64,000 bases of DNA from Pristiophorus japonicus (GCF_044704955.1 NC_091994.1:48670001-48734000), one strand, 5' to 3'. Positions 37,201 to 50,200 are shown, counted from the stretch's first letter. The notes: generated by a model not told the origin, from the sequence alone. Numbers and translations are program-made.

Positions 37201-38149
37201 CTTGAGTCTTTTTGTTTCAGAGGTTAAGTCTATCAGGTGGTTGACGCTCTCTCATGTAGCGCCACAGTTGTGGCTCTAGTGGCTGAGTCTCAGCACGCGT
37301 CTCTGTCACTTGAGGTGATTCCGGCTTGTTCGGGCTGGCCGCAGGCATTGTGCATGCTGAGGGCTGTCTTTGTTGCTTGTACACTGGCAGTGGTGTGGGT
37401 GCTATCTCATCATGCTCTTCTTCCGGTTCCTCCGTGTCTATGCTGAACCTTGTCTTTACTTGGTCCAAGTGTTTGCGGCATATCTGCCCATTGTTTAGTC
37501 TGACCACCATGACCCTGTTTCCTTCTTTGCCAATTACGGTGCCCTCAAGCCATTTGGGTCCCAAAGCATGGTTAAGAACAAATACCGGGTCATCTATTTC
37601 TATACACCTCCCCCTTGAGCCTCGATCATGGAGCTCGTTTTGGGACTGGTGCTTGCCCTCAACAATGTCTGCCAGGTCTGGGTGAATGAGGGACAGCCGC
37701 GTCTTGAGCGTACGTTTCATGAGGAGTTCCGCTGGTGGGACTCCTGTGAGCGAGTGCGGCCGGGACCTGTAGGCCAGCAGGAGGCGCGATAGGCGGTAAT
37801 GAAGGGAGGGTCCTTGGATGCGTTGCATACCCTGCTTTATGACTTGGACCGCCCGTTCAGCCTGGCCATTGGAAGCCGGCTTGAACGGTGCTGTCCGGAT
37901 GTGCTTGATCCCATTGCCCGACATAAACTCCTGGAATTCATGGCTGGTAAAACACGGGCCATTGTCACTGACCAGGATGTCCGGCAAGCTGTGGGTCGCG
38001 AAAACCGTACGCAGACTCTCCACTGTGATGGATGTCGTGCACTAGTTCAATATGATGCATTCCATCCACTTCGAGTATGCATCGACTTCGATCAGGAACA
38101 TTTTCCCCATGAACGGGCCCGCATAGTCGACGTGAATACGTGACCATGG

Positions 38150-38826
38150 TGTGGAAAGTATTTTTATCTAAGCTGATACCATACGGTATTTGTGTGCCTT
38201 TTGATTAAAATGGAGTCCTGGCCCTTCCAGAACTTTCTGCATTTTAGCAGTCAGCTTGCATAAACAGCTAAACCTGCTGTGAGATGGCTGATGGCCATCA
38301 GACAGCTAGGAGACAAGTCATGCTGAGACAAGTAACCCCCATGGTGCTCTCCTATTGTCTACACTACAGGAGTTCCATGTCACCCCACCCTTATCTTCTA
38401 GCCATTATCTCTTTCCGAGACCTCATCCATTTGATGCAAACAGATAAACTGACCAGGAAATTGAAACAATCCTGACACAATACAAGACAGGTGATAGCCC
38501 ATTACCTATGACTCATGGAGTAATGGCCGTTTGGCTTTCTGATAACCCTGACAAAAGGAAATATCTGGACACCATGTCAGGACCAGGATATAGTAATTAA
38601 CTCTTTATCTGTATTCACTGACTGTGAGACAGAGCAATACACAGGGAGAGGCCAGAACTTTGGTTTTACTGTATAAATATCTTGTTAAACTGAACCATTT
38701 CGGAGGTGTTCATTTAGCCCTTGACTGAGTGAAACCTACCCCTTGCGAGCAAGTAAATTAAAAAGGAAACTTCTACCGGAGCTGTAAGTGTCGGAGTCAT
38801 TCTTTTCGGAGGTCGAGATTTCGACA
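38150..38826 (+). repeat. ERV-1 5' LTR (677 bp)
   Basis: TG...CA; TATAAA at 38672; ATTAAA at 38757; no difference seen from 46550-47226. Confidence 0.98.
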
Positions 38827-38831
38827 GTTAT

Positions 38832-38849
38832 TGGAGGTTCCACCGAGAT
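38832..38849 (+). promoter_or_regulatory. Primer-binding site, tRNA-Gln
   Basis: TGGAGGTTCCACCGAGAT is the complement of the vertebrate tRNA-Gln 3' end. Confidence 0.92.
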
Positions 38850-39797
38850 GCATACTCTCTGTTCTGTGAGTAAAACGGATACAGGCATAGTGCCTCTCCA
38901 GTGAAAGGCTTCGGTGGCCAAACAAGGTGAGCCTTTGCTCACAAGAGGTTTCTTCACTGTTGAATCGCAGATGTAATCTGTTGTCCACAGCTGAGGTACT
39001 GCATCTACAAGACTCGGCATTTAAAAGTTAAAGGTATTTTTTTTATAACCATTTCTTTCTCAGCTCGCCAGCAGAAGAGAACAGGTTCTGGAAAAAAAAC
39101 CTCGAGACAGCCCGGGGAAGGTTTCAGTAGGTAAGGGAGCGCTAGTCGATCGAAAAGGGTTCCAGGTTCTTATGTGATAAGATTTTTATTGTTTTTAATT
39201 CGGAAGGGGTTCTTATGTGATAAGACTATTAAAAAAAAAGAAAAAAAGAAAGCGCTAGTCGATCGAAGGTTCTTATGTGATAAGATTTTTATTGTTTTTA
39301 ATTCGGAAGGGGTTCTTATGTGATAAGACTATAAAAAAAAAGAGCGCAATCGATCAAAGAGTTTGGGTACGGAACCTTAAGTTTTATCAGTTTTTATTAG
39401 GATAAGTTAAGGACTCGGTCTGTAGTGGCGTACAACGCAGACTGAGAATTTGTTTAGAGGTTATGATTTGTGTACTCACGGGAATATTGTTTGTTGTCCT
39501 TGTATTACTGTTGTGTGCAATACCTTTGTGACTCATTGCCATTAGAGAAATGGGAAGAGTCACTAGGGAAAGTTGTGATTCGAAAAAAAAAAACACAAGG
39601 ATTGATTAGGAAAAGAAACAGTAACTGATTGATCAACTACGATTGGTTCGTGCCAACATATCTCACACACCCAGACTGAGCCCGAATTAAGAGCCTTTTC
39701 AGGCCACGTAACGGCCAGGAGAAGTGGGCGTAGAGAACTCGGTTGGCCGAAAGGATTGTGAGATCAGAAACTGTGGAAAAATCTTAAATCATCCAGA

Positions 39798-41540
39798 ATG
39801 GGGGCTGGAGCAAGTAAACCACCACCAAAAGGGACCCCACCCCATTTTATGCTCCAGAATTGTGGTCAGTCTTCAATTGACCACCTAAGAGAATGGGTAA
39901 AATGGACTAAGGGTGAAAACAGGCCATTTCCACCCGATGGTTCATTCAATTTAGAGAGAATAACCTGTCTAGAAGAATGCCTTATAGACAGAGACCCAGG
40001 TAGAAGAGGGAAAAAAAAAGTGAATTGGTCAGCGTTTGGAGATTGGAAAAGGGAAGCTGAGGAACGACACGAGAAGAGCCTAAGAGTTAGCAAGCAGTGT
40101 ACTAGAGGGAGAAAGCAGGGGGATGAACGGGTAGAGCAGGTGAATCGCCCTCGACATAACAAACACCCATCCGTTATGGTTGCTAAAGAGACAAAGGCAC
40201 ACTCACCTAGGGCTCCTGAGGGTTGGGATAAGGATGAGGATGAGGACCGGGATGAGGATTGGACTCCCTACAGCCATCGACCACCGCCGTATGTTCCATC
40301 CCCGGGGGGTGCTCCAGGCCAAGGAGGAGACGATCCTCGGGCCGGAGTACAGGGAAACGGGGTAATACCCGCTCCCAACAATACAGGTGCGGCTGCAGGA
40401 AATATAAGTCAGTCACAAGGGAATCAATACCGTGACGGCCCTGCAGGGGGCACACGAAGTCATACCCGTGGACCAGAGCCCGTTGCCCTGGAGCCATCAT
40501 CATCTGCATACCCAGTAAGACTTTTTCCCAGTCCACTCTCTGGGGGGGCTCCGGTCCCTATTTATCGACCATGGTCACCAAGTGAATTAAGAATAATTGT
40601 GGAAGGATTGGCAGACCCCAAAACCAATATTGAAAAGGCCATAGACCAGTTAAAAGTAATCATCTTGTGCCACGAACCCAGTATATTAGATGGTCAAATC
40701 TTACTGAAAGCATGGTTAAAGGACACAAAATTTGCCGAACTTGAGATAAAATTCAAAGATTTTAAAACCCATCGAGAGGCTCCGGATGCAGATCCCAGCA
40801 CGAAGCCAGGAGAGGGGTTCTGGGGAAGATGTTGGGAAGCCTTACATTCGGTGTTCCCGAGGAAAACGAATTGGTCCAAAATTATGGAAACTACACAAAG
40901 AAAGGAGGAGGATGTTGAGGATTATGTAGAAAGAGTGCGAGAGATCATGAACCAATGTTCAGGCATGAAAATGGAGGAGGTAGAAGCTCCTATGATCAGC
41001 GCCGTGGTAAACGGGCTACGGCCCGAACTCAGAGATCCCTTTAAACTAGTTTGTCTCGGATGGCGACAGGAATCGCTATCCAAGGTTGTATCTATGTTAA
41101 AGGACATACAAGAGCGAAATAGAGAATCTAGAAGCAAGGTCACCATGTTTGTAGGACAAGCAGCTCCAATGACACCCACCCCGGTGACACCGTCCTACGG
41201 CCCGCCCCAGGGTAGAGGAAGAGGGCGAGCCAGAGGAGGATATTACAGGGGAAGAGGGAGAGGAGGTGCAGGGCAGGAACAATATGATACCTGTCACAAT
41301 TGTGGACAGATTGGACACTGGGCTAGAACTTGCCGGGCAAAACAGCAACAACCAAATCATGATTGGACTCAACAGGCAGGTAATAGAGCACACCCTCCCC
41401 CTTCAGAACCCAACCCGTATGCGACCCAAGTCCAGGTACATGCTAGACCTCAGACTAATTTCTCTGTGCAAGATCCATTTGGATCACAGAATCAAAAGCA
41501 ATTCGGCCAACCACCAAATTGCCCGTATAATGATCAATGA
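39798..41540 (+). CDS. gag: ERV-1 Gag, intact, 580 aa
   Basis: MGAGAS myristoylation signal, PPPY late domain, capsid (YRPWSPSEL), CHNCGQIGHWARTC knuckle. Confidence 0.96.
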   Translation: MGAGASKPPPKGTPPHFMLQNCGQSSIDHLREWVKWTKGENRPFPPDGSFNLERITCLEECLIDRDPGRRGKKKVNWSAFGDWKREAEERHEKSLRVSKQCTRGRKQGDERVEQVNRPRHNKHPSVMVAKETKAHSPRAPEGWDKDEDEDRDEDWTPYSHRPPPYVPSPGGAPGQGGDDPRAGVQGNGVIPAPNNTGAAAGNISQSQGNQYRDGPAGGTRSHTRGPEPVALEPSSSAYPVRLFPSPLSGGAPVPIYRPWSPSELRIIVEGLADPKTNIEKAIDQLKVIILCHEPSILDGQILLKAWLKDTKFAELEIKFKDFKTHREAPDADPSTKPGEGFWGRCWEALHSVFPRKTNWSKIMETTQRKEEDVEDYVERVREIMNQCSGMKMEEVEAPMISAVVNGLRPELRDPFKLVCLGWRQESLSKVVSMLKDIQERNRESRSKVTMFVGQAAPMTPTPVTPSYGPPQGRGRGRARGGYYRGRGRGGAGQEQYDTCHNCGQIGHWARTCRAKQQQPNHDWTQQAGNRAHPPPSEPNPYATQVQVHARPQTNFSVQDPFGSQNQKQFGQPPNCPYNDQ

Positions 41541-44500
41541 CGCCCAATCCCAGACCCGAGTGCTGCGAACAAACAGCTACCCGTCGTTTCGTTAAATGCC
41601 ATAGGAGAACCTGAAGTAAAAATACGAATACAAGGAAAGGATGTCCCATTCCTAGTGGATACTGGTGCCACCTATTCGGTCCTTTCAAGGGAGGATACGA
41701 GGGGAATTCCCACTTCCACTAATCAAACCTCAGTGAGTGGACTATCTGGACACGCACAGCAAATGTTTTTCTCCAACCCTATCAATGTACAAATAGAGGA
41801 TTACGAAGATAGTCATTCATTCCTACTGTCTAAGGAGGTTCCAGTGAATCTGTGTGGACGTGACCTGTTATGTAAAATGAATGCCACGATCCTCTGTTCC
41901 CCAGCTGGTCTGGAGGTTCGAGTCCCCATAGATAAATGTGGCGCATATCCACTACTTCAACCCACAACTCCCATTTTGTATGCCTGGGAAAATTTGGACC
42001 CCACACTAAGCAAAACCCTATCCTATTTGGTTGGTTCATATTGGTGTGTAACAAGGTTAATCACAGACTACCTCAAATCTCAAACCTTGGGCAAGTGGTA
42101 CGAAACATTACACTGCACAGCATATTGTGACAAAACGGGATCAGACGCTACAGCACAAATCTTTTATCAACCATTCCTGCACCAGAAACATCAATTGATG
42201 ATCGAAAAAATCTTTATCGGACCCGAAGGGATAGCGGCAGGGGTTGAATTATCCTCCCACAGTCAGAGCTTGTTTAGGGTTAAAGGGAGCATTCCACACT
42301 GCACCCTTGCGGTTGCAGGCACGTATAAACCCCAGGATTTAGGACGAATGGTTAAAAGAATGCAAGGATCCCCAGTACAAGAGGAATGGCACACACGTAA
42401 TGGAACTTTGGGGCAACATGAAAGGGGGGGAGGCTATTCTGTCAAGTTGAATGGGAAAATATACTTCGATGCTGTCTTAGAAGAAAGGATGCTCTCAGCC
42501 ACTAGCTTCCCAGTACGACAAAGCACAGCAGAGCTTCTTGCTAAAGTTCCAGAACAACTATGGTCTACACACGCTAATGAAGTAGGAAGGATGCTCACCG
42601 CACAACCCTATAAGGTAGCGATCAATTCAACCGCCCCGCTCCCCAAGAAGCCTCAATACCCCTTGTCCCCAGCCGCAGAACAAGGTATTGAGCCAGTCAT
42701 TAAGTCCCTGCTGGCCCAGGGAGTAATCGTTCCAACTAGAAGTCCATGTAACACACCGATCTTTCCGGTGCAGAAGCCCAATAGTGACAAATGGAGATTT
42801 GTCCAAGACCTACGAGCCGTGAATCATTTGGTATTCCCAACTTATCCAGTGGTACCCAACCCGGCAATTATACTTGCCAGTATTCCGGCATCCTCAACGT
42901 ATTACACAGTAGTTGATCTGTGTTCAGCATTTTTCTCAATACCCATTCACCCAGAGTCTCAATTCCTGTTTGCCTTCACGTATAAAGGACACCAATATAC
43001 GTGGACAAGACTCCCGCAGGGATTTACCGAGAGCCCTACCATATTCTCACAGTGCCTAAAGAGGGATCTGGAAGATGTAATTTTACCAGCAGGTTCTACA
43101 CTTGTGCAGTATGTTGACCACTTATTGCTCGCCTCACCCTCCAAATTGGCCTGCGAAACGGACTCCCTTGTGTTATTAAAAGCTCTGGCCTCGAAAGGAC
43201 ACAAGGTGTCAAAGGCAAAGTTACAATTTGTCTCAGAAAAGGTTCGGTATCTAGGGCACGAATTGGTCAGAGATACGAGACAATTGACACAAGACCGAGT
43301 AAAAGCAATCTGCTCTGCCCCACTACCAGTAACCAAGAGAGAAATGAAACACCTCCTCGGCATGACAGGATACTGCCGACAATGGGTTACGAGTTATTCC
43401 GAGATTGTTAGACCACTGTTAGACATGTCCATGCCCGCACTACCAGAGAAGTTGATTTGGAATGAGGTATCCCGGAATGCTTTTCAGAACCTTAAACAGT
43501 CCCTCACTTCAGCACCCGCCTTGGGATTACCAGATTACACTAAGCTATTCAACTTATTTGTGCATCACAAGTCGGGTTTTGCACAATCTGTTTTGACTCA
43601 GTTACATGGGGACAGGCAGCGACCGGTAGCGTATTTCAGTACCTAACTAGACCCAGTGGCACGCGGACTACCAGGATGTCTTCCTTCGTTGGCAGCAGCT
43701 TATTATGCTATGCAACAGGCTCAGACAATCAAAAATGCAGAACAAGTGGAAAATCTCCTGCGAGCCATTCAATGCCCTTTGAAACTTGCCATTATCAAAT
43801 GCCAAGCACATACAGGCCAGTCGAATGAGGTGGCACTTGGGAATGCCAGAGCTGATAATGCAGCTAAGTCAGCAGCTCTGTCGAAAGGGGGGATGCAGGT
43901 GTCATTGTTCCCACTAAGGAAAAATAATTGCTCAGACCCGCCACCCACTATTAATGACGTGCTGGCCTTTCAGACACAGGCCAGTACGGAGGAGGTGGTG
44001 ACCTGGACGAAGGATCAATGTTATAAAAATCCAGAAGGAATATGGGTTCACCATGACGGCCGCGTGGTGGCCCCTAGATCCTTACTTCCATGGATTGCCC
44101 GATGTGTTCATACATTCACACATGCAGGCAAAGGGGGATTGGCAGATTATATTTTAGCAACTTGGTATGCACCAGGTATTTCGGCAATTGCAAAACAAAT
44201 CTGTGAAAATTGTGTTACCTGTCAGACAATGAATCCGGGTAAGACGGAAAAAGTAGAATCTGCCTCCCACCCAAATCCAGTCGGGCCTTTTGTACATTTA
44301 CAAATGGATTTTATTGAATTACCTATGTGTATGGGATTCAAGTATGTATTAGTTATTGTAGATGTGTTCTCTAGATGGATTGAAGCCTTTCCATGTAAAA
44401 AGGCCGATGCCACTACTGTTGCTAAATGTTTGTTAAAAGAAATTGTACCGCGCTTCGGAATCCCTGCTAAGCTTTCCAGTGATAACGGGTCACATTTCAC

Positions 44501-45125
44501 GGGAACTGTTATAAGAGAAATGTGTAAAGCTTTACAGATTAATCAACGTTTTCATTGCAGTTATCATCCACAATCAGCTGGACTTGTTGAAAGATATAAT
44601 GGAATGCTTAAAAATAAGCTGGCAAAACTATGCAATGACACTGGACTGAAATGGACAGAACTGCTGCCCTTAGCTTTGATGGTAATGCGATCTGCAACCA
44701 ACAGAACAACAGGCCTGTCACCGCATGAGATAGTTATGGGACGTCCCCAACGACTACCTTTTACAGCACCATTTACTGCAAAACAGATGGACATCCACAA
44801 AATGGAGGAAAATATGTTAAATTATTGTATTGCACTAACCAAATGTATTTCCAGCTTTCATTCACAGGTAAAGGAAGCCCAAGTCAAGCCAGCGGAAGGG
44901 AAGTGTCATAACCTGGAGCCAGGGGAATTCGTTTACATCAAGATTTTTAAAAGGAAAAGCAGTCTACAGCCAAGATTCGAAGGACCATACCAGGTCTTGC
45001 TGGCGACCAATACTGCAATCAAGGTAAAGGAAAGACCAACATGGATCCACGCATCCCATTGCAAACGGGCACCCGACCAGGAGGAAGGGACGAAGGAATC
45101 AGAGGAACAGAAAAAGGAAGACTGA
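41541..45125 (+). pseudogene. pol: ERV-1 Pol (PR, 2H phosphoesterase, RT, truncated RNase H, IN), defective
   Basis: In frame with gag after TGA; VDTGA; LPQG; YVDH instead of YxDD (43110-43121); TAA at 43644; RNase H deletion near 43730; intact-looking HHCC/DDE integrase. Confidence 0.94.
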
Positions 45126-46519
45126 ATAAGGAACTGTATGGACTATGGGGACTGATGGTGCTGGGCTTGACAGGGTTTTACTTCACATTATTGATTACAC
45201 CAGGGGTACAGACCCACCACCGAAGGGAATTGCACGTAAACGTATTTATGGCACTGAGTCATAGGTATGCTCAAGAAAGAAACTTGTCGAGTTGTTGGAT
45301 ATGTTCCCATGTACCTGTCCACTCCAGGGGGGGTATTCCCCTGAGATCTGTCCCCTTTAACGAATCAGAAATGGTAGAATGGTTGACAGTGCAAAACAGG
45401 ACAAAACTAACTAAGGGGCCAGAAACGAAGGAGCAAACAGAATGGAGGTCGGCAGAGTATAAACTTACAGCCTTCCAGGGATGGTACCAGCCCAATTATG
45501 ATAATAACCATCAGCCTCCCTTCCTAAGCATTACTCCCAGAATAGGAAATCCTGAAGGTATAATATGCCTAGTGAGTAATGAGACTAAAGGACCAGAAAT
45601 GGGACGCAGCAAGTGTTCCCAAATGATTAAATGGCAAGCCACAACTAATCCCACTGAGAGAAAGATAGCAACCGTTGGCTGGACAACGGTCCATAACAAA
45701 GCCCCAGGTAAAGGGTGGGAAGGTGAGACCACTCGAGTAGGGACAGTGCGAAAGGACCAGGAGCTGACGTCCTATAATTGCACCTACTTTATTTGTGGCC
45801 ATAAAGCCTACCCATGGTTACCAGCCAACTGGACAGGGTCCTGTTACTTAGGATATGTGGTACCCCTTATCAGATCAGTAAGGACTCTAAGGGAGGCCTA
45901 TGGAAGCCACAGATTTAAACGGGATTTGACGTGGCTAAACGGAATATTCAAGGTAATGGTGCCACCCTATGGAATAGCATCGACCGAATGGCAGTTACGG
46001 GAACTGGCTAACTTAGTAGAATCAGTAGCCAACGCAACTTCCCAAGCCTTTGAAGGGATAAATGACGAAATGGTAGCTATTCGAACAGTGGCTCTCCAAA
46101 ATCGTATGGCCTTAGATTATCTCCTAGCCAAGGAGGGAGGAACATGCGCATTAATAGGTGAAGAATGCTGTACGTATATCCCAGATAAATCAGAAGATAC
46201 CGGCAGTCTAGCTGAAAACATCAGGAAAAAGGTAATAGAGTATAAACAGACAGTTGGCCAGGACGGTATCACCTTGTGGGGTTGGGCATCAGGATGGTTG
46301 GGAGCCCTGGGGAAATCTGTGGTACAGGGTTTGATCATATTCCTGCTGATAGTCTTCGTCCTGTATCTATTATTTGTCGTCATTAAGTGTTGCTGTGCCA
46401 GGGTGGGAGAAACTATGTTACCTACCGAGACCACGGCTAGAGTTATGGTAGCAACAACTGCTGAAGGCTCTTGTGTAGAAATGGAAATGGAGAGACTGTA
46501 CAAGATCAGAATGGATTGA
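45041..46519 (+). CDS. env: ERV-1 envelope, intact ORF of 492 aa
   Basis: Hydrophobic signal, CWIC, RFKR, ISD LQNRMALDYLLAKEGGTC, CALIGEECC, TM; the true start codon may be downstream. Confidence 0.95.
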   Translation: MDPRIPLQTGTRPGGRDEGIRGTEKGRLNKELYGLWGLMVLGLTGFYFTLLITPGVQTHHRRELHVNVFMALSHRYAQERNLSSCWICSHVPVHSRGGIPLRSVPFNESEMVEWLTVQNRTKLTKGPETKEQTEWRSAEYKLTAFQGWYQPNYDNNHQPPFLSITPRIGNPEGIICLVSNETKGPEMGRSKCSQMIKWQATTNPTERKIATVGWTTVHNKAPGKGWEGETTRVGTVRKDQELTSYNCTYFICGHKAYPWLPANWTGSCYLGYVVPLIRSVRTLREAYGSHRFKRDLTWLNGIFKVMVPPYGIASTEWQLRELANLVESVANATSQAFEGINDEMVAIRTVALQNRMALDYLLAKEGGTCALIGEECCTYIPDKSEDTGSLAENIRKKVIEYKQTVGQDGITLWGWASGWLGALGKSVVQGLIIFLLIVFVLYLLFVVIKCCCARVGETMLPTETTARVMVATTAEGSCVEMEMERLYKIRMD

Positions 46520-46549
46520 GTTGTCCTTGTGAAGGACAAAATGGGGGAA

Positions 46550-47226
46550 TGTGGAAAGTATTTTTATCTAAGCTGATACCATACGGTATTTGTGTGCCTT
46601 TTGATTAAAATGGAGTCCTGGCCCTTCCAGAACTTTCTGCATTTTAGCAGTCAGCTTGCATAAACAGCTAAACCTGCTGTGAGATGGCTGATGGCCATCA
46701 GACAGCTAGGAGACAAGTCATGCTGAGACAAGTAACCCCCATGGTGCTCTCCTATTGTCTACACTACAGGAGTTCCATGTCACCCCACCCTTATCTTCTA
46801 GCCATTATCTCTTTCCGAGACCTCATCCATTTGATGCAAACAGATAAACTGACCAGGAAATTGAAACAATCCTGACACAATACAAGACAGGTGATAGCCC
46901 ATTACCTATGACTCATGGAGTAATGGCCGTTTGGCTTTCTGATAACCCTGACAAAAGGAAATATCTGGACACCATGTCAGGACCAGGATATAGTAATTAA
47001 CTCTTTATCTGTATTCACTGACTGTGAGACAGAGCAATACACAGGGAGAGGCCAGAACTTTGGTTTTACTGTATAAATATCTTGTTAAACTGAACCATTT
47101 CGGAGGTGTTCATTTAGCCCTTGACTGAGTGAAACCTACCCCTTGCGAGCAAGTAAATTAAAAAGGAAACTTCTACCGGAGCTGTAAGTGTCGGAGTCAT
47201 TCTTTTCGGAGGTCGAGATTTCGACA
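46550..47226 (+). repeat. ERV-1 3' LTR
   Basis: Copy of 38150-38826 preceded by PPT. Confidence 0.98.
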
Positions 47227-50200
47227 ATGGCCTGGTGGGCCAGGGCCACGGGTTGAGTGGAGCCTCCCTGGGAGCATTGCCCAGCTGGGCACACGTCATG
47301 CATCTGCGAACCCAGTGTTCCAGGTCTGAGTCAATCCCCGGCCACCATACATGTGACCGGGCAATGGCCTTCATTAACACAATGCCAGGATGCTCGCTGT
47401 GGAGTTCCCTGATGAACACTTCCCTTCCTTTCTGGGGCATGACTACCCGGCTGCCCCATAACAGGCAGTCGGCTTGGATGGAGAGTTCATCCATCCGTCT
47501 CTGAAACGGCCTGACTTCCTTGGGGCATGCCCTGTGTGCGGGCGCCCAATTCCCAGTCAGGACACATTTCTTTATCATGAATAGGAGGGGGTCCCTGTTG
47601 GTCCAGAGTTTGATCTGTCAGGCTGTGATGGGGGAGCCCGCAGTGTCAAAAGCCTCAACGGCCATGACCATCTCGACGCTCTGCTCCGACGCCCCCTCGG
47701 TGGTGGCCAGTGGGAGCCTGCTGAGTGTGTCAGCGCAATTTTCGGTGCCTGGCCGGTGCCGTATGGTGTAGTCATACGCAGCCAGCGTGAGGGCCCATCG
47801 CTGTATGCGAGCTGACACGTTAGCATTGACAGCCTTGCTGTCGGACAACAGGGATGTTAACGGCTTGTGGTCCGTCTCTAGCTCGAACTGTCTACTGAAA
47901 AGATACTGGTGCATCTTTTTCACACCGTACACACGCGCGAGTGCCTCCTTCTCGACCATGCCGTATCCATGCTCTGCCTGGGAGAGCGACCTGGAGCCGT
48001 AAGCCACCGGTTGGAGTCAGCCGTCATCGTTACCCTGCTGCAATACACACCAATCCCGTAGGATGACGCATCGCATGTTAAAACCAGTTTTTTATAAGGG
48101 TCATACAAAATCAACAGTTTGTTGGAACACAGCAGGTTCCTCGCCTTATTGAAAGCCCGTTCTTGACAATCCCCCCAAAACCATTCACAACCTTTATGGA
48201 GGAGCATGTGTCACGGCTCCAACAATGTGCTTAAGTTTGGCAGAAAGTTCCCAAAATAGTTCAAAAATCCCAAGAACCATCGCAACTCCGACGTGTTGCC
48301 GGGCCTGGGCGCCCGGTAAATCGCCTCAGTTTTTGATTCAGTGGGCCAGATCCCATCTGCGGCAACCCTCCTGCCCAGGAACTCGACCTCTGAGGCCAGA
48401 AACACGCACTTGGCCTTTTTCAGCCGCAAGCCTACCCAATCCAATCGGCGTAGCACCTCCTCCAGGTTGGGGAGATGTTCCTCGGTGTCTCGACCCATTA
48501 TAAGGATGTCGTCTTGGAATACGACCATTCCAGAGATGGACTTGAGCAAGCTTTCCATGTTTTGCTGAAAGATAGCTGCTGCCGAACGAATGCCAAACGG
48601 GCACCTGTTGTAGACAAATAATCCTTTGTGCGTCGTGATGGTGGTCAGAAGCTTGGAATCTTCCGCCAGTTCGTGAGTCATGTAGGCCAAAGTGAGGTCC
48701 AGCTTCGTGAACAGCTTTCCACCTGCCAGCGTGGCAAAGAGGTCCTCCACTCTCGGAAGCGCGTATTGGTCTTGCAGCGACACTCGGTTGATGGTGGCTT
48801 TGTAGTCGCCACAAATCCTAACCGAGCCATCTGCTTTGATGACGGGAACGATGGGACTTGCCCAGTCGCTGAATTCAATGGCCGAAATTATGCCCTCTCT
48901 GAGCAGCCTGTCCAGTTCACTTTCAATTTTCTCACGCATCACGTACGGCACCGCTCTGACTTTGTGGTGCACTGGTCTGGCATCCAGAGTGATGCGTATC
49001 ACTACTTTAGTGCCCTTGAATGTACCGACACCGGGTTGAAACAGTGACTCGAATTTTTGCAAGACCTGCGAGCATGAACTTCGCTCCACAGATGAAATGG
49101 CGTGCACATCCCCCCATTTCCAATTCATCTCAGCTAGCCAACTCCTCCCCAAAAGCGCGGGGCCATTTCCCGGAACAATCCAGAGTGCAGCCGGTTCTGT
49201 AATCCATTATGCGTTACCACCAAGTTTGCACTGCCCAGCACTGGGATTATCTCTTTGGTGTACGTACGTAGCTGCATCTCAATGCATTCCAGTTTGGGTC
49301 TGCTAGCTCTGTGTGGTCATAGTCTCTCAAACTGTTGGCCGCTCATGAGTGACTGACTAGCTCCCGTATCCAGCTCCATGTGCACCGGGATGCCATTCAG
49401 TAAGATTTTCATCATCATGGGTGGCGTTTTAGTATATGAGCTATGGACGTCAACCACATGAACTCTCTGAGCTTCCGCATCCATGGTTGTTCCCCAGGCC
49501 TCATTATGCATTGCAGACCCCTCGTCTGGTTCCTCTGTCTCGCATACTAGCCTCGCTACTGCCTTTTTGCACATCCTGGCCAAGTGTCCACTGACATTAC
49601 AAATCCTACAGGTATAAAGCTGGAACCTGCAGCTTTTGGCAGTGTGTCTACCCCACACCTCCAACATGAGCTGAGATTGCTGTTAACAAAAGAACTATTC
49701 CAAGGCATTCCTCTCTGATGGCCCGTTTGGCTGTTTCTAAGCATCTGAATGGTCCCATCACGGGATGCATTGTTCCTCATGATGGCGTGAATTGCCGATC
49801 CCCTTTCCATTGTCCCTGTTGCAGGCCCACACTGGAGCTTATTGCTGCCTGGGTGGTGTTGAATTGCCCTTTCCTGCCTGCCTGGGCGGTGTTGAATTGT
49901 CCTTGGCTGCATGCGGGGTTCTGTATCACTTTTATAACATTAACTCCCTGGTTCATCGCAACGTTAAAACCAGGGCTGCGTGTGTAAATTAGCTTGGTCT
50001 CCTCTTCCCCTGCCATAAAGGTCTGAGCTATCAATGCTGCCCCTTCTAAAGTCAGGTCCTTGGTCTTTATAAGCTTCCTGAAAATGCCGGCATGATTCAT
50101 GCCCTCAATGAAAAAGTCCCTTAACATCTCCCCCCTGTAGGCATCAGAGAACTTACTGAGACTGGCCAAACGCCGCAGTTCCGCCACAAAATCCGAGACA

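What the first reader, a model, noticed from the sequence alone, without database searches (positions are those of the whole stretch)
38150..47226. Identical LTRs but three pol lesions: defective provirus probably mobilised in trans
Seen: no LTR differences over 677 bp and a perfect TSD, yet RT has YVDD changed to YVDH, a TAA at 43644 and an in-frame deletion of most of the connection/RNase H region (QAQTI joined to KNAEQV). Gag and env are intact. Inference: lesions predate integration, implying a recently or currently active helper retrovirus in this shark; the insertion may be polymorphic.
Basis: partly seen in the sequence, partly recalled or inferred. Interest (0 to 1): 0.7.

Follow-up and report, generated by a model that had tools for sequence, protein, structure and literature searches.

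The report
Freeloading retrovirus copies in a shark
This is a real but broken retrovirus copy whose missing piece is also missing from about 130 other copies across the genome, so the broken form was likely copied many times with enzymes borrowed from full-length relatives that sit in the same genome; how recently this happened is not settled.

Summary
In detail: identical 677-bp LTRs, a perfect 4-bp target duplication, open gag and env, and three pol lesions. The lesions differ in history. The 558-bp connection/RNase H deletion has the same junction at 133 places in the assembly (40 distinct flanks among 47 two-LTR copies examined), and the stop occurs at 42 places, so both were inherited before insertion. 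The YVDH motif occurs only here; this copy has 12 private changes, which fit identical LTRs by chance (P = 0.12), so that lesion may postdate insertion. A helper need not be hypothetical: of 60 copies sampled, 7 are full-length, 2 have open gag and pol, and 1 has all genes open with identical LTRs. The family (at least 874 internal copies) is a recombining swarm of defective forms, as in cattle ERVK and koala recKoRV. Current activity and polymorphism are not shown: at published shark rates identical LTRs allow up to about 3 million generations. It is an epsilon-like class I ERV with a likely CNPase-type insert. Known mechanism, apparently undescribed family, in a group with no reported invading retrovirus. 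The scan's earlier notes showed nothing on it.

The parts
38146..38149 (+). Left target-site duplication (ATGG)
38150..38826 (+). 5' LTR, 677 bp, TG...CA
38832..38849 (+). Primer-binding site for tRNA-Gln, 5 nt behind the LTR
   Evidence: 15 bases plus CCA match 3 tRNA-Gln genes of the same genome; spacer is 5 nt in 84 of 108 copies
39034..39132 (+). Two splice donors (GT at 39034 and 39131) used by the family
   Evidence: GT..AG joints in contigs of X6 and X7, not listed for DNA run X1; not assignable to this locus
39164..39341 (+). 75-bp direct repeat in the leader
39798..41540 (+). gag, 580 aa, open, one CCHC knuckle, ends in TGA in frame with pol (read-through inferred)
   Evidence: TGA in 50 of 51 copies covering the site
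41541..41900 (+). Retroviral aspartyl protease
   Evidence: Pfam RVP, E 6e-14
42087..42551 (+). Insert between protease and RT, likely a CNPase-type 2H phosphodiesterase
   Evidence: two HxT motifs, present in 13 of 120 relatives; all listed Foldseek hits are CNPase family, best E 7e-3, model pLDDT 60
42552..43643 (+). Reverse transcriptase
   Evidence: Pfam RVT_1; best PDB match MLV RT, E 5e-101
43110..43121 (+). Catalytic motif reading YVDH, private to this copy
   Evidence: 1 match in the genome; 0 of 49 near copies share it
43644..43646 (+). In-frame TAA in pol, shared with other copies
   Evidence: 42 exact matches
43728..43729 (+). Junction of the 558-bp in-frame deletion of the connection and most of RNase H (2-bp microhomology)
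   Evidence: 133 exact matches
44073..45125 (+). Integrase (H2C2, core, MLV-type C-terminus), open but behind the stop
44853..44854 (+). Splice acceptor upstream of env
45041..46519 (+). env, 492 aa, open, gamma-type TM
   Evidence: Pfam TLV_coat, E 2e-17; motifs read
46538..46549 (+). Polypurine tract
46550..47226 (+). 3' LTR, identical to the 5' LTR
47227..47230 (+). Right target-site duplication (ATGG)
37217..38149 (-). Interrupted host element (Ty3/gypsy-like), integrase part
   Evidence: Pfam rve; the name Ty3/gypsy rests on recalled domain order
47227..49206 (-). Interrupted host element, RT side
   Evidence: Pfam RVT_1, ORFs

Best explanation
This provirus is one of at least 133 copies that share one RNase H deletion within a large, young retrovirus family, and it was likely reverse-transcribed and integrated by enzymes supplied by full-length members of the same family. 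Shown: the deletion and the stop are shared among dispersed, separately inserted copies; full-length copies with open pol exist at 98.6-99.1% identity; the family's copies are mosaics. Inferred: its RNA, with intact LTRs, primer site, leader and polypurine tract, was packaged together with full-length RNA, template switching during reverse transcription mixed the two, and the helper's integrase inserted the product into another retrotransposon. The YVDH change likely arose in the last copying step or afterwards.
For: Exact junction at 133 places on most large contigs; among 47 junction copies with both LTRs (window included) there are 40 distinct 3' flanks, and 41 of the 46 others have a perfect 4-bp duplication. 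A second deletion in gag is found in 10 of 57 junction copies and 0 of 65 undeleted ones, so deleted genomes were themselves re-copied. In the first 60 of 858 listed copies: 7 full-length; gag open 6, full pol open 5, gag and pol 2, all three genes 1. Recombination: 60% of 1953 site pairs show four gametes and linkage falls with distance (5 of 500 permutations as low); junction, stop and the gag-PR-RT replacement occur in all 8 combinations. This copy carries rare alleles at 41171 and 42323-4 otherwise seen only in 2-4 undeleted copies and is the only junction copy with both gag and env open (0 of 57 others). pN/pS is 0.14-0.61 in all genes (all comparisons share the window copy). The same pattern is documented in cattle ERVK[2-1-LTR] (PMC10924933, passages read).
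Against: No single-origin haplotype marks the deletion: r2 with neighbouring sites is at most 0.19 between 43457 and 44285, which fits heavy recombination but also repeated origin or gene conversion. Trans action is inferred from sequence, not observed. The RT lesion cannot be placed before insertion. The sample needed an exact 26-base match and so leans to young copies; 8 duplicated loci were dropped before linkage counts. Open reading frames do not show that a helper works.
Confidence: 0.82

Rival explanations
1. The deletion arises again and again at a hot spot when full-length RNA is reverse-transcribed, so each deleted copy is a dead end and no defective genome was mobilised in trans.
For: 2-bp microhomology at the junction; the junction lies on several haplotype backgrounds.
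Against: Identical breakpoints at 133 places; a second gag deletion nested in 10 of 57 junction copies and 0 of 65 others; several variants shared only among junction copies (e.g. 43770: 15 of 50 versus 0 of 59); the junction ends are not GT-AG.
Confidence: 0.06
2. Gene conversion or ectopic recombination between resident proviruses spread the deletion and made the mosaics after insertion, and also kept the two LTRs identical.
For: Very high sequence identity among hundreds of copies would allow it; 5 of 46 junction copies have mismatched duplications, and observed LTR differences exceed those predicted from private internal changes (543 versus 328).
Against: 41 of 46 junction copies keep perfect duplications; LTR divergence tracks private internal change across 107 copies (rho 0.55), so wholesale conversion is not the rule.
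Confidence: 0.07
3. All three lesions arose at this locus after insertion and the LTR identity is an assembly or conversion artefact.
For: The YVDH change is private; raw long reads could not be checked.
Against: Deletion and stop are shared by 133 and 42 places; most LTR pairs in this assembly are not collapsed (35 of 44 differ).
Confidence: 0.02
4. The helper was, or is, a still-circulating infectious form of this virus, and the germline invasion is going on now (compatible with the best explanation, but a stronger claim on timing and source).
For: 9 of 44 two-LTR copies have identical LTRs against 0.16 expected for one burst; some have 0-1 private changes; 1 of 60 copies has all genes open and identical LTRs; env pN/pS about 0.5; spliced leader-to-env contigs in 2 runs of other samples.
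Against: Shark rates of 7e-10 per generation (PMC10587355) or an assumed 2.2e-10 per year (PMC4422223) let identical LTRs be millions of generations or up to about 10 My old; this copy has more private change per kb than 16 of the 20 other copies with identical LTRs; polymorphism untested.
Confidence: 0.25

Closest known systems
Epsilon-like (class I, 'clade Mu') fish ERVs such as ZFERV and the CNPase-bearing elements of Basta et al. 2009 (via PMC4977317, section 7 and passages read; PMC6001957, passages read)
   Same: LTR-gag-pro-pol-env order, MLV-type integrase C-terminus, gamma-type env, likely CNPase insert, nearest named RTs from fish, turtle, lizard and a sawshark at 41-55% identity
   Different: No close relative in the protein collection (best 60-61%, unnamed); RT tree gives no well-supported clade and held no WDSV or ZFERV row; no accessory ORFs seen; 5-nt LTR-to-PBS spacer
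Bovine ERVK[2-1-LTR] competent/defective pair; also recKoRV/KoRV-A, ETn/MusD, IAP I-delta-1 as listed there (PMC10924933, passages read)
   Same: Defective forms outnumber competent ones, recombine with them, and the commonest form has its centre replaced by an old retroelement piece (35 of 60 copies here lack PR and RT; about 900-bp filler with an 83%-identical RT remnant)
   Different: Those are mammalian, with mobilisation shown in sperm or pedigrees; here it is a class I element in a cartilaginous fish and mobilisation is only inferred; this copy keeps gag and env and loses RNase H
CmiERVs of the elephant shark (PMC4422223, part 1 of 2 of the text read)
   Same: Epsilon-related ERVs in a cartilaginous fish
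   Different: Three near-complete copies with 2.4-3.3% LTR divergence, against at least 874 internal copies here with median 4 LTR differences in 677 bp
Invading ERVs (ERVi) of Wang and Han 2023 (PMC10435555, section 6 and passages read; supplements not seen)
   Same: The family holds at least one copy with identical LTRs and open genes, two of their three criteria
   Different: This copy fails the intact-gene criterion; polymorphism untested; no cartilaginous-fish order is among the 37 host orders they list although 13 such genomes were screened

Membership tests
Endogenous retrovirus (provirus) | Paired LTRs with TG...CA, short target duplication, PBS and PPT | tested here: met
Endogenous retrovirus (provirus) | gag, PR, RT, RNase H, IN order followed by env | tested here: met
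   Pfam domains in this order, RNase H only as a remnant
Class I (gamma/epsilon-like) ERV | RT closest to MLV-type RT; gamma-type env; gag and pol in one frame across a stop; 4-bp duplication (features recalled) | tested here: met
Epsilon-like fish ERVs (clade Mu) | RT groups with epsilonretroviruses in a tree | tested here: inconclusive
   38-row tree places it beside an unnamed protein, no starred clade, no reference epsilonretrovirus among the rows
Epsilon-like fish ERVs (clade Mu) | Occasional CNPase/2H insert in pol | tested here: inconclusive
   two HxT motifs and CNPase as all listed fold hits, but E 7e-3 and pLDDT 60; no PDB sequence hit
Genus Epsilonretrovirus (WDSV type) | Accessory ORFs before gag and after env (recalled) | tested here: not met
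   no plus-strand ORF of 80 aa or more between 38827 and 39761; env ends 18 bases before the PPT
Non-autonomous ERV mobilised in trans | Same inactivating lesion at many separately inserted loci | tested here: met
   133 junction matches; 40 distinct flanks of 47
Non-autonomous ERV mobilised in trans | Closely related coding-competent copies and intact cis signals | tested here: met
   2 of 60 with open gag and pol; LTR, PBS, PPT intact
Non-autonomous ERV mobilised in trans | Mobilisation observed (new insertions, co-packaging) | not testable with these tools
   no pedigree, sperm or raw-read data
Invading ERV (ERVi, Wang and Han 2023) | Identical LTRs | tested here: met
Invading ERV (ERVi, Wang and Han 2023) | Intact gag, pro, pol, env | tested here: not met
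   this copy has three pol lesions; 1 of 60 sampled relatives meets it
Invading ERV (ERVi, Wang and Han 2023) | Insertional polymorphism | tested here: inconclusive
   only assembled contigs were available

The most novel reading that the evidence does not exclude
A retrovirus is invading a shark germline now or within recent population history: a family of about 900 or more proviruses, with on the order of ten to thirty coding-competent copies driving a swarm of recombining defective genomes, would be the first invading retrovirus documented in a cartilaginous fish, and its polymorphic insertions would let one calibrate ERV dating in the slowest-mutating vertebrates.
Probability: 0.3. Interest if true: 0.72.

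Novelty: new member of a known kind. Interest (0 to 1): 0.45.

Why it matters
Complementation in trans is textbook, so the single locus is ordinary. The family is less so. Published cartilaginous-fish ERVs are few and old (PMC4422223, PMC4977317), and a screen of 13 such genomes lists no invading element in the group (PMC10435555). Here hundreds of near-identical copies, open full-length members, spliced env contigs and a defective majority mirror the cattle and koala systems. It offers a natural test of whether defective genomes outcompete their helpers outside mammals. It also shows that identical LTRs are a poor clock in sharks.

Tried and rejected
Empty site and polymorphism: contigs of runs X1, X2, X8, X9 laid on the 5' junction listed no bridging piece among the 19 pieces shown (197 not shown); on the whole element no exact empty-site joint was among the 15 joints shown (19 not shown). 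A joint 38146-47233 with 5 other letters in X1 looks like a paralogous copy of the host element. Contigs drop rare variants and the host element is very high-copy, so this is no evidence either way. Checking the private changes in reads failed for the same reason. No RNA holder was listed; X5-X7 are of unrecorded kind. Small shares X8, X9 matched only 38 bases of the LTR start plus a polypurine tract: no claim drawn. Splice origin of the deletion: ends are not GT-AG; rejected. Atlas search of the PR-RT insert gave no result; PDB sequence search found nothing. The first 740 bases of the filler matched none of the 120 pol relatives apart from one hit starting at base 736; origin unknown. The RT tree did not resolve the genus. 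Literature: searches found no description of this family, but the library lacks most subscription papers and repeat databases were not searched. Earlier findings of the scan concerned Tx1 and Gypsy elements or were empty.

Full report
Observation. The element spans 38150-47226. Its LTRs are identical over exactly 677 bp and are flanked by ATGG on both sides. It interrupts the integrase of a minus-strand LTR retrotransposon. Gag (580 aa) and env (492 aa) are open; pol holds YVDH at 43110, TAA at 43644 and a join at 43728-43729. Read with X at the stop, pol aligns to MLV RT up to chain residue 397 and resumes at 584; 107 of 120 relatives have a median of 186 extra residues there. The primer site matches tRNA-Gln genes of the same genome over 18 bases. 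A neighbouring LINE has its best named matches in Callorhinchus (68-69%), consistent with a cartilaginous-fish host; the species was not determined.

Family size. The genome (5.9 Gb) gave 2235 LTR candidates; the 40 scored were all at least 99% identical, and 12 of the 30 fetched were solo LTRs. A 26-base motif left of the junction occurs 858 + 16 = 874 times, a lower bound for copies with internal sequence. I fetched about 10 kb around 136 of them: the first 60 of the 858 as a sample, all 16 of the other class, 40 chosen for the stop or junction and 20 further junction copies. Of the 60: 35 lack protease and RT, 8 keep gag-pro-RT but have lost 3' parts, 7 are full-length, 6 carry the RNase H deletion, 4 are otherwise partial.

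The three lesions. The exact junction occurs 133 times. Undeleted copies have 558 more bases, with 2 bp of microhomology. Among 47 junction copies with both LTRs, window included, there are 40 distinct 3' flanks, and 41 of the 46 others have a perfect duplication: these are separate insertions. A second deletion in gag is in 10 of 57 junction copies and 0 of 65 undeleted ones, so deleted genomes were re-copied. The stop occurs 42 times; after dropping 8 duplicated loci it is in 26 of 50 junction copies and 6 of 59 undeleted ones. YVDH occurs once. This copy has 12 private substitutions in 7723 internal sites and none in its LTR; if all arose after insertion, 2.1 LTR differences are expected and zero has probability 0.12. 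So identical LTRs do not date that lesion. Eight of the 11 coding private changes alter the protein, as neutral decay would give.

Helpers. Among the 60, gag is open in 6, full pol in 5, both in 2, and all three genes in 1, which also has identical LTRs and is 98.8% identical to this copy. pN/pS against the window copy is 0.14-0.61 across gag, pol and env (not independent comparisons), which suggests spread by replication with some selection on env. Contigs from two runs of other samples join leader donors to acceptors upstream of env at GT..AG ends; no such joint is listed for the DNA run. These runs are not on record as RNA, and their contigs carry other letters at this copy's private sites, so they speak for the family and not this locus.

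Recombination. Over 63 informative sites in 104 copies, 60% of pairs show four gametes and linkage falls with distance (5 of 500 permutations). The junction, the stop and the gag-PR-RT replacement occur in all eight combinations. This copy shares rare alleles at 41171 and 42323-4 only with undeleted copies and is the only junction copy with gag and env both open (0 of 57 others). The simplest reading is co-packaging of deleted and full-length RNA with template switching (inference). Against a clean single origin, no flanking site is tightly linked to the junction (r2 at most 0.19 from 43457 to 44285).

Mechanism. Translation of this copy would give Gag and, by read-through of the TGA, protease and an RT that ends before RNase H; integrase lies behind the stop. 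It cannot copy or insert itself (from established retroviral biology). Its cis signals are intact, so a full-length relative expressed in the same cell would supply RT/RNase H and integrase. Whether the helper was a resident provirus or an incoming virus cannot be told.

Age. Identical LTRs are found in 9 of 44 sampled two-LTR copies (median 4 differences), far more than one burst predicts (0.16), so activity was prolonged with a young tail. This copy has more private change per kb than 16 of the 20 other identical-LTR copies. With 7e-10 per generation (PMC10587355, passages read) the 95% upper bound is 3.2 million generations; with the 2.2e-10 per year assumed in PMC4422223 about 10 My; with the teleost rate used in PMC8672886 (1.46e-8, passages read) about 0.15 My (last two my arithmetic). 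Current activity is therefore possible but not shown, and polymorphism was not resolved.

Classification and novelty. Domain content and MLV-like RT make it a class I ERV. The RT tree is unresolved. The PR-RT insert has two HxT motifs and weak but uniform fold matches to CNPase, a feature reported for epsilon-like fish ERVs (PMC4977317 section 7; PMC9503650 passage). It lacks WDSV-type accessory ORFs. Complementation in trans and defective majorities are known from cattle, koala and mouse (PMC10924933; PMC10435555). I found no paper on this family, and Wang and Han list no cartilaginous-fish order among hosts of invading ERVs (their supplementary tables were not seen and may bear on this). Verdict: real, mechanism known, family apparently new; interest 0.45.

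Noticed in passing
window 42087-42551: Insert between protease and RT with two HxT motifs; fold hits are all CNPase-family 2H phosphodiesterases (weak, E 7e-3). Its role in a fish retrovirus pol is open.
   Followed up: partly
L077 and 67 other loci, between window-equivalent 40005 and 43454: The commonest family form has most of gag, protease and RT replaced by a 825-1030-bp filler (median 96.6% alike among copies, 37% GC) ending in an 83%-identical RT remnant; the first 740 bases are of unknown origin. Same design as recKoRV, ETn and bovine D elements.
   Followed up: partly
window 38827-38831: Five bases lie between the LTR's terminal CA and the primer site in 84 of 108 copies (9 in 17), where two is usual (recalled).
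   Followed up: partly
window 41538-41540: gag ends in TGA in 50 of 51 copies, implying opal read-through rather than the amber codon recalled for MLV.
   Followed up: partly
window-equivalent 45590-46477: An env deletion of about 888 bp is shared by 34 of 57 junction copies and 24 of 65 undeleted copies and is also seen as a joint in contigs of four runs.
   Followed up: partly
window-equivalent 43933-44002, e.g. L150: A 63-70-bp unit just before integrase is tandemly repeated up to five times in some copies.
   Followed up: no
L179, L181, L182, L184, L185 and other pairs: Junction copies on unplaced contigs share flanks and have 14-22 LTR differences: they were multiplied by segmental duplication, and some of those contigs also hold tRNA-Gln motif matches.
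   Followed up: no
genome-wide: 647 exact matches to a tRNA-Gln 3' motif, 590 on one strand, suggesting large tandem tRNA arrays.
   Followed up: no
runs X8 and X9, window 38158-38195: Runs under two other organism codes hold the LTR start joined to a polypurine tract, a weak hint that the family occurs in related species.
   Followed up: no
98 perfect duplications in fetched loci: Target duplications are 60% GC, above the surrounding sequence, hinting at a GC-rich target preference.
   Followed up: no
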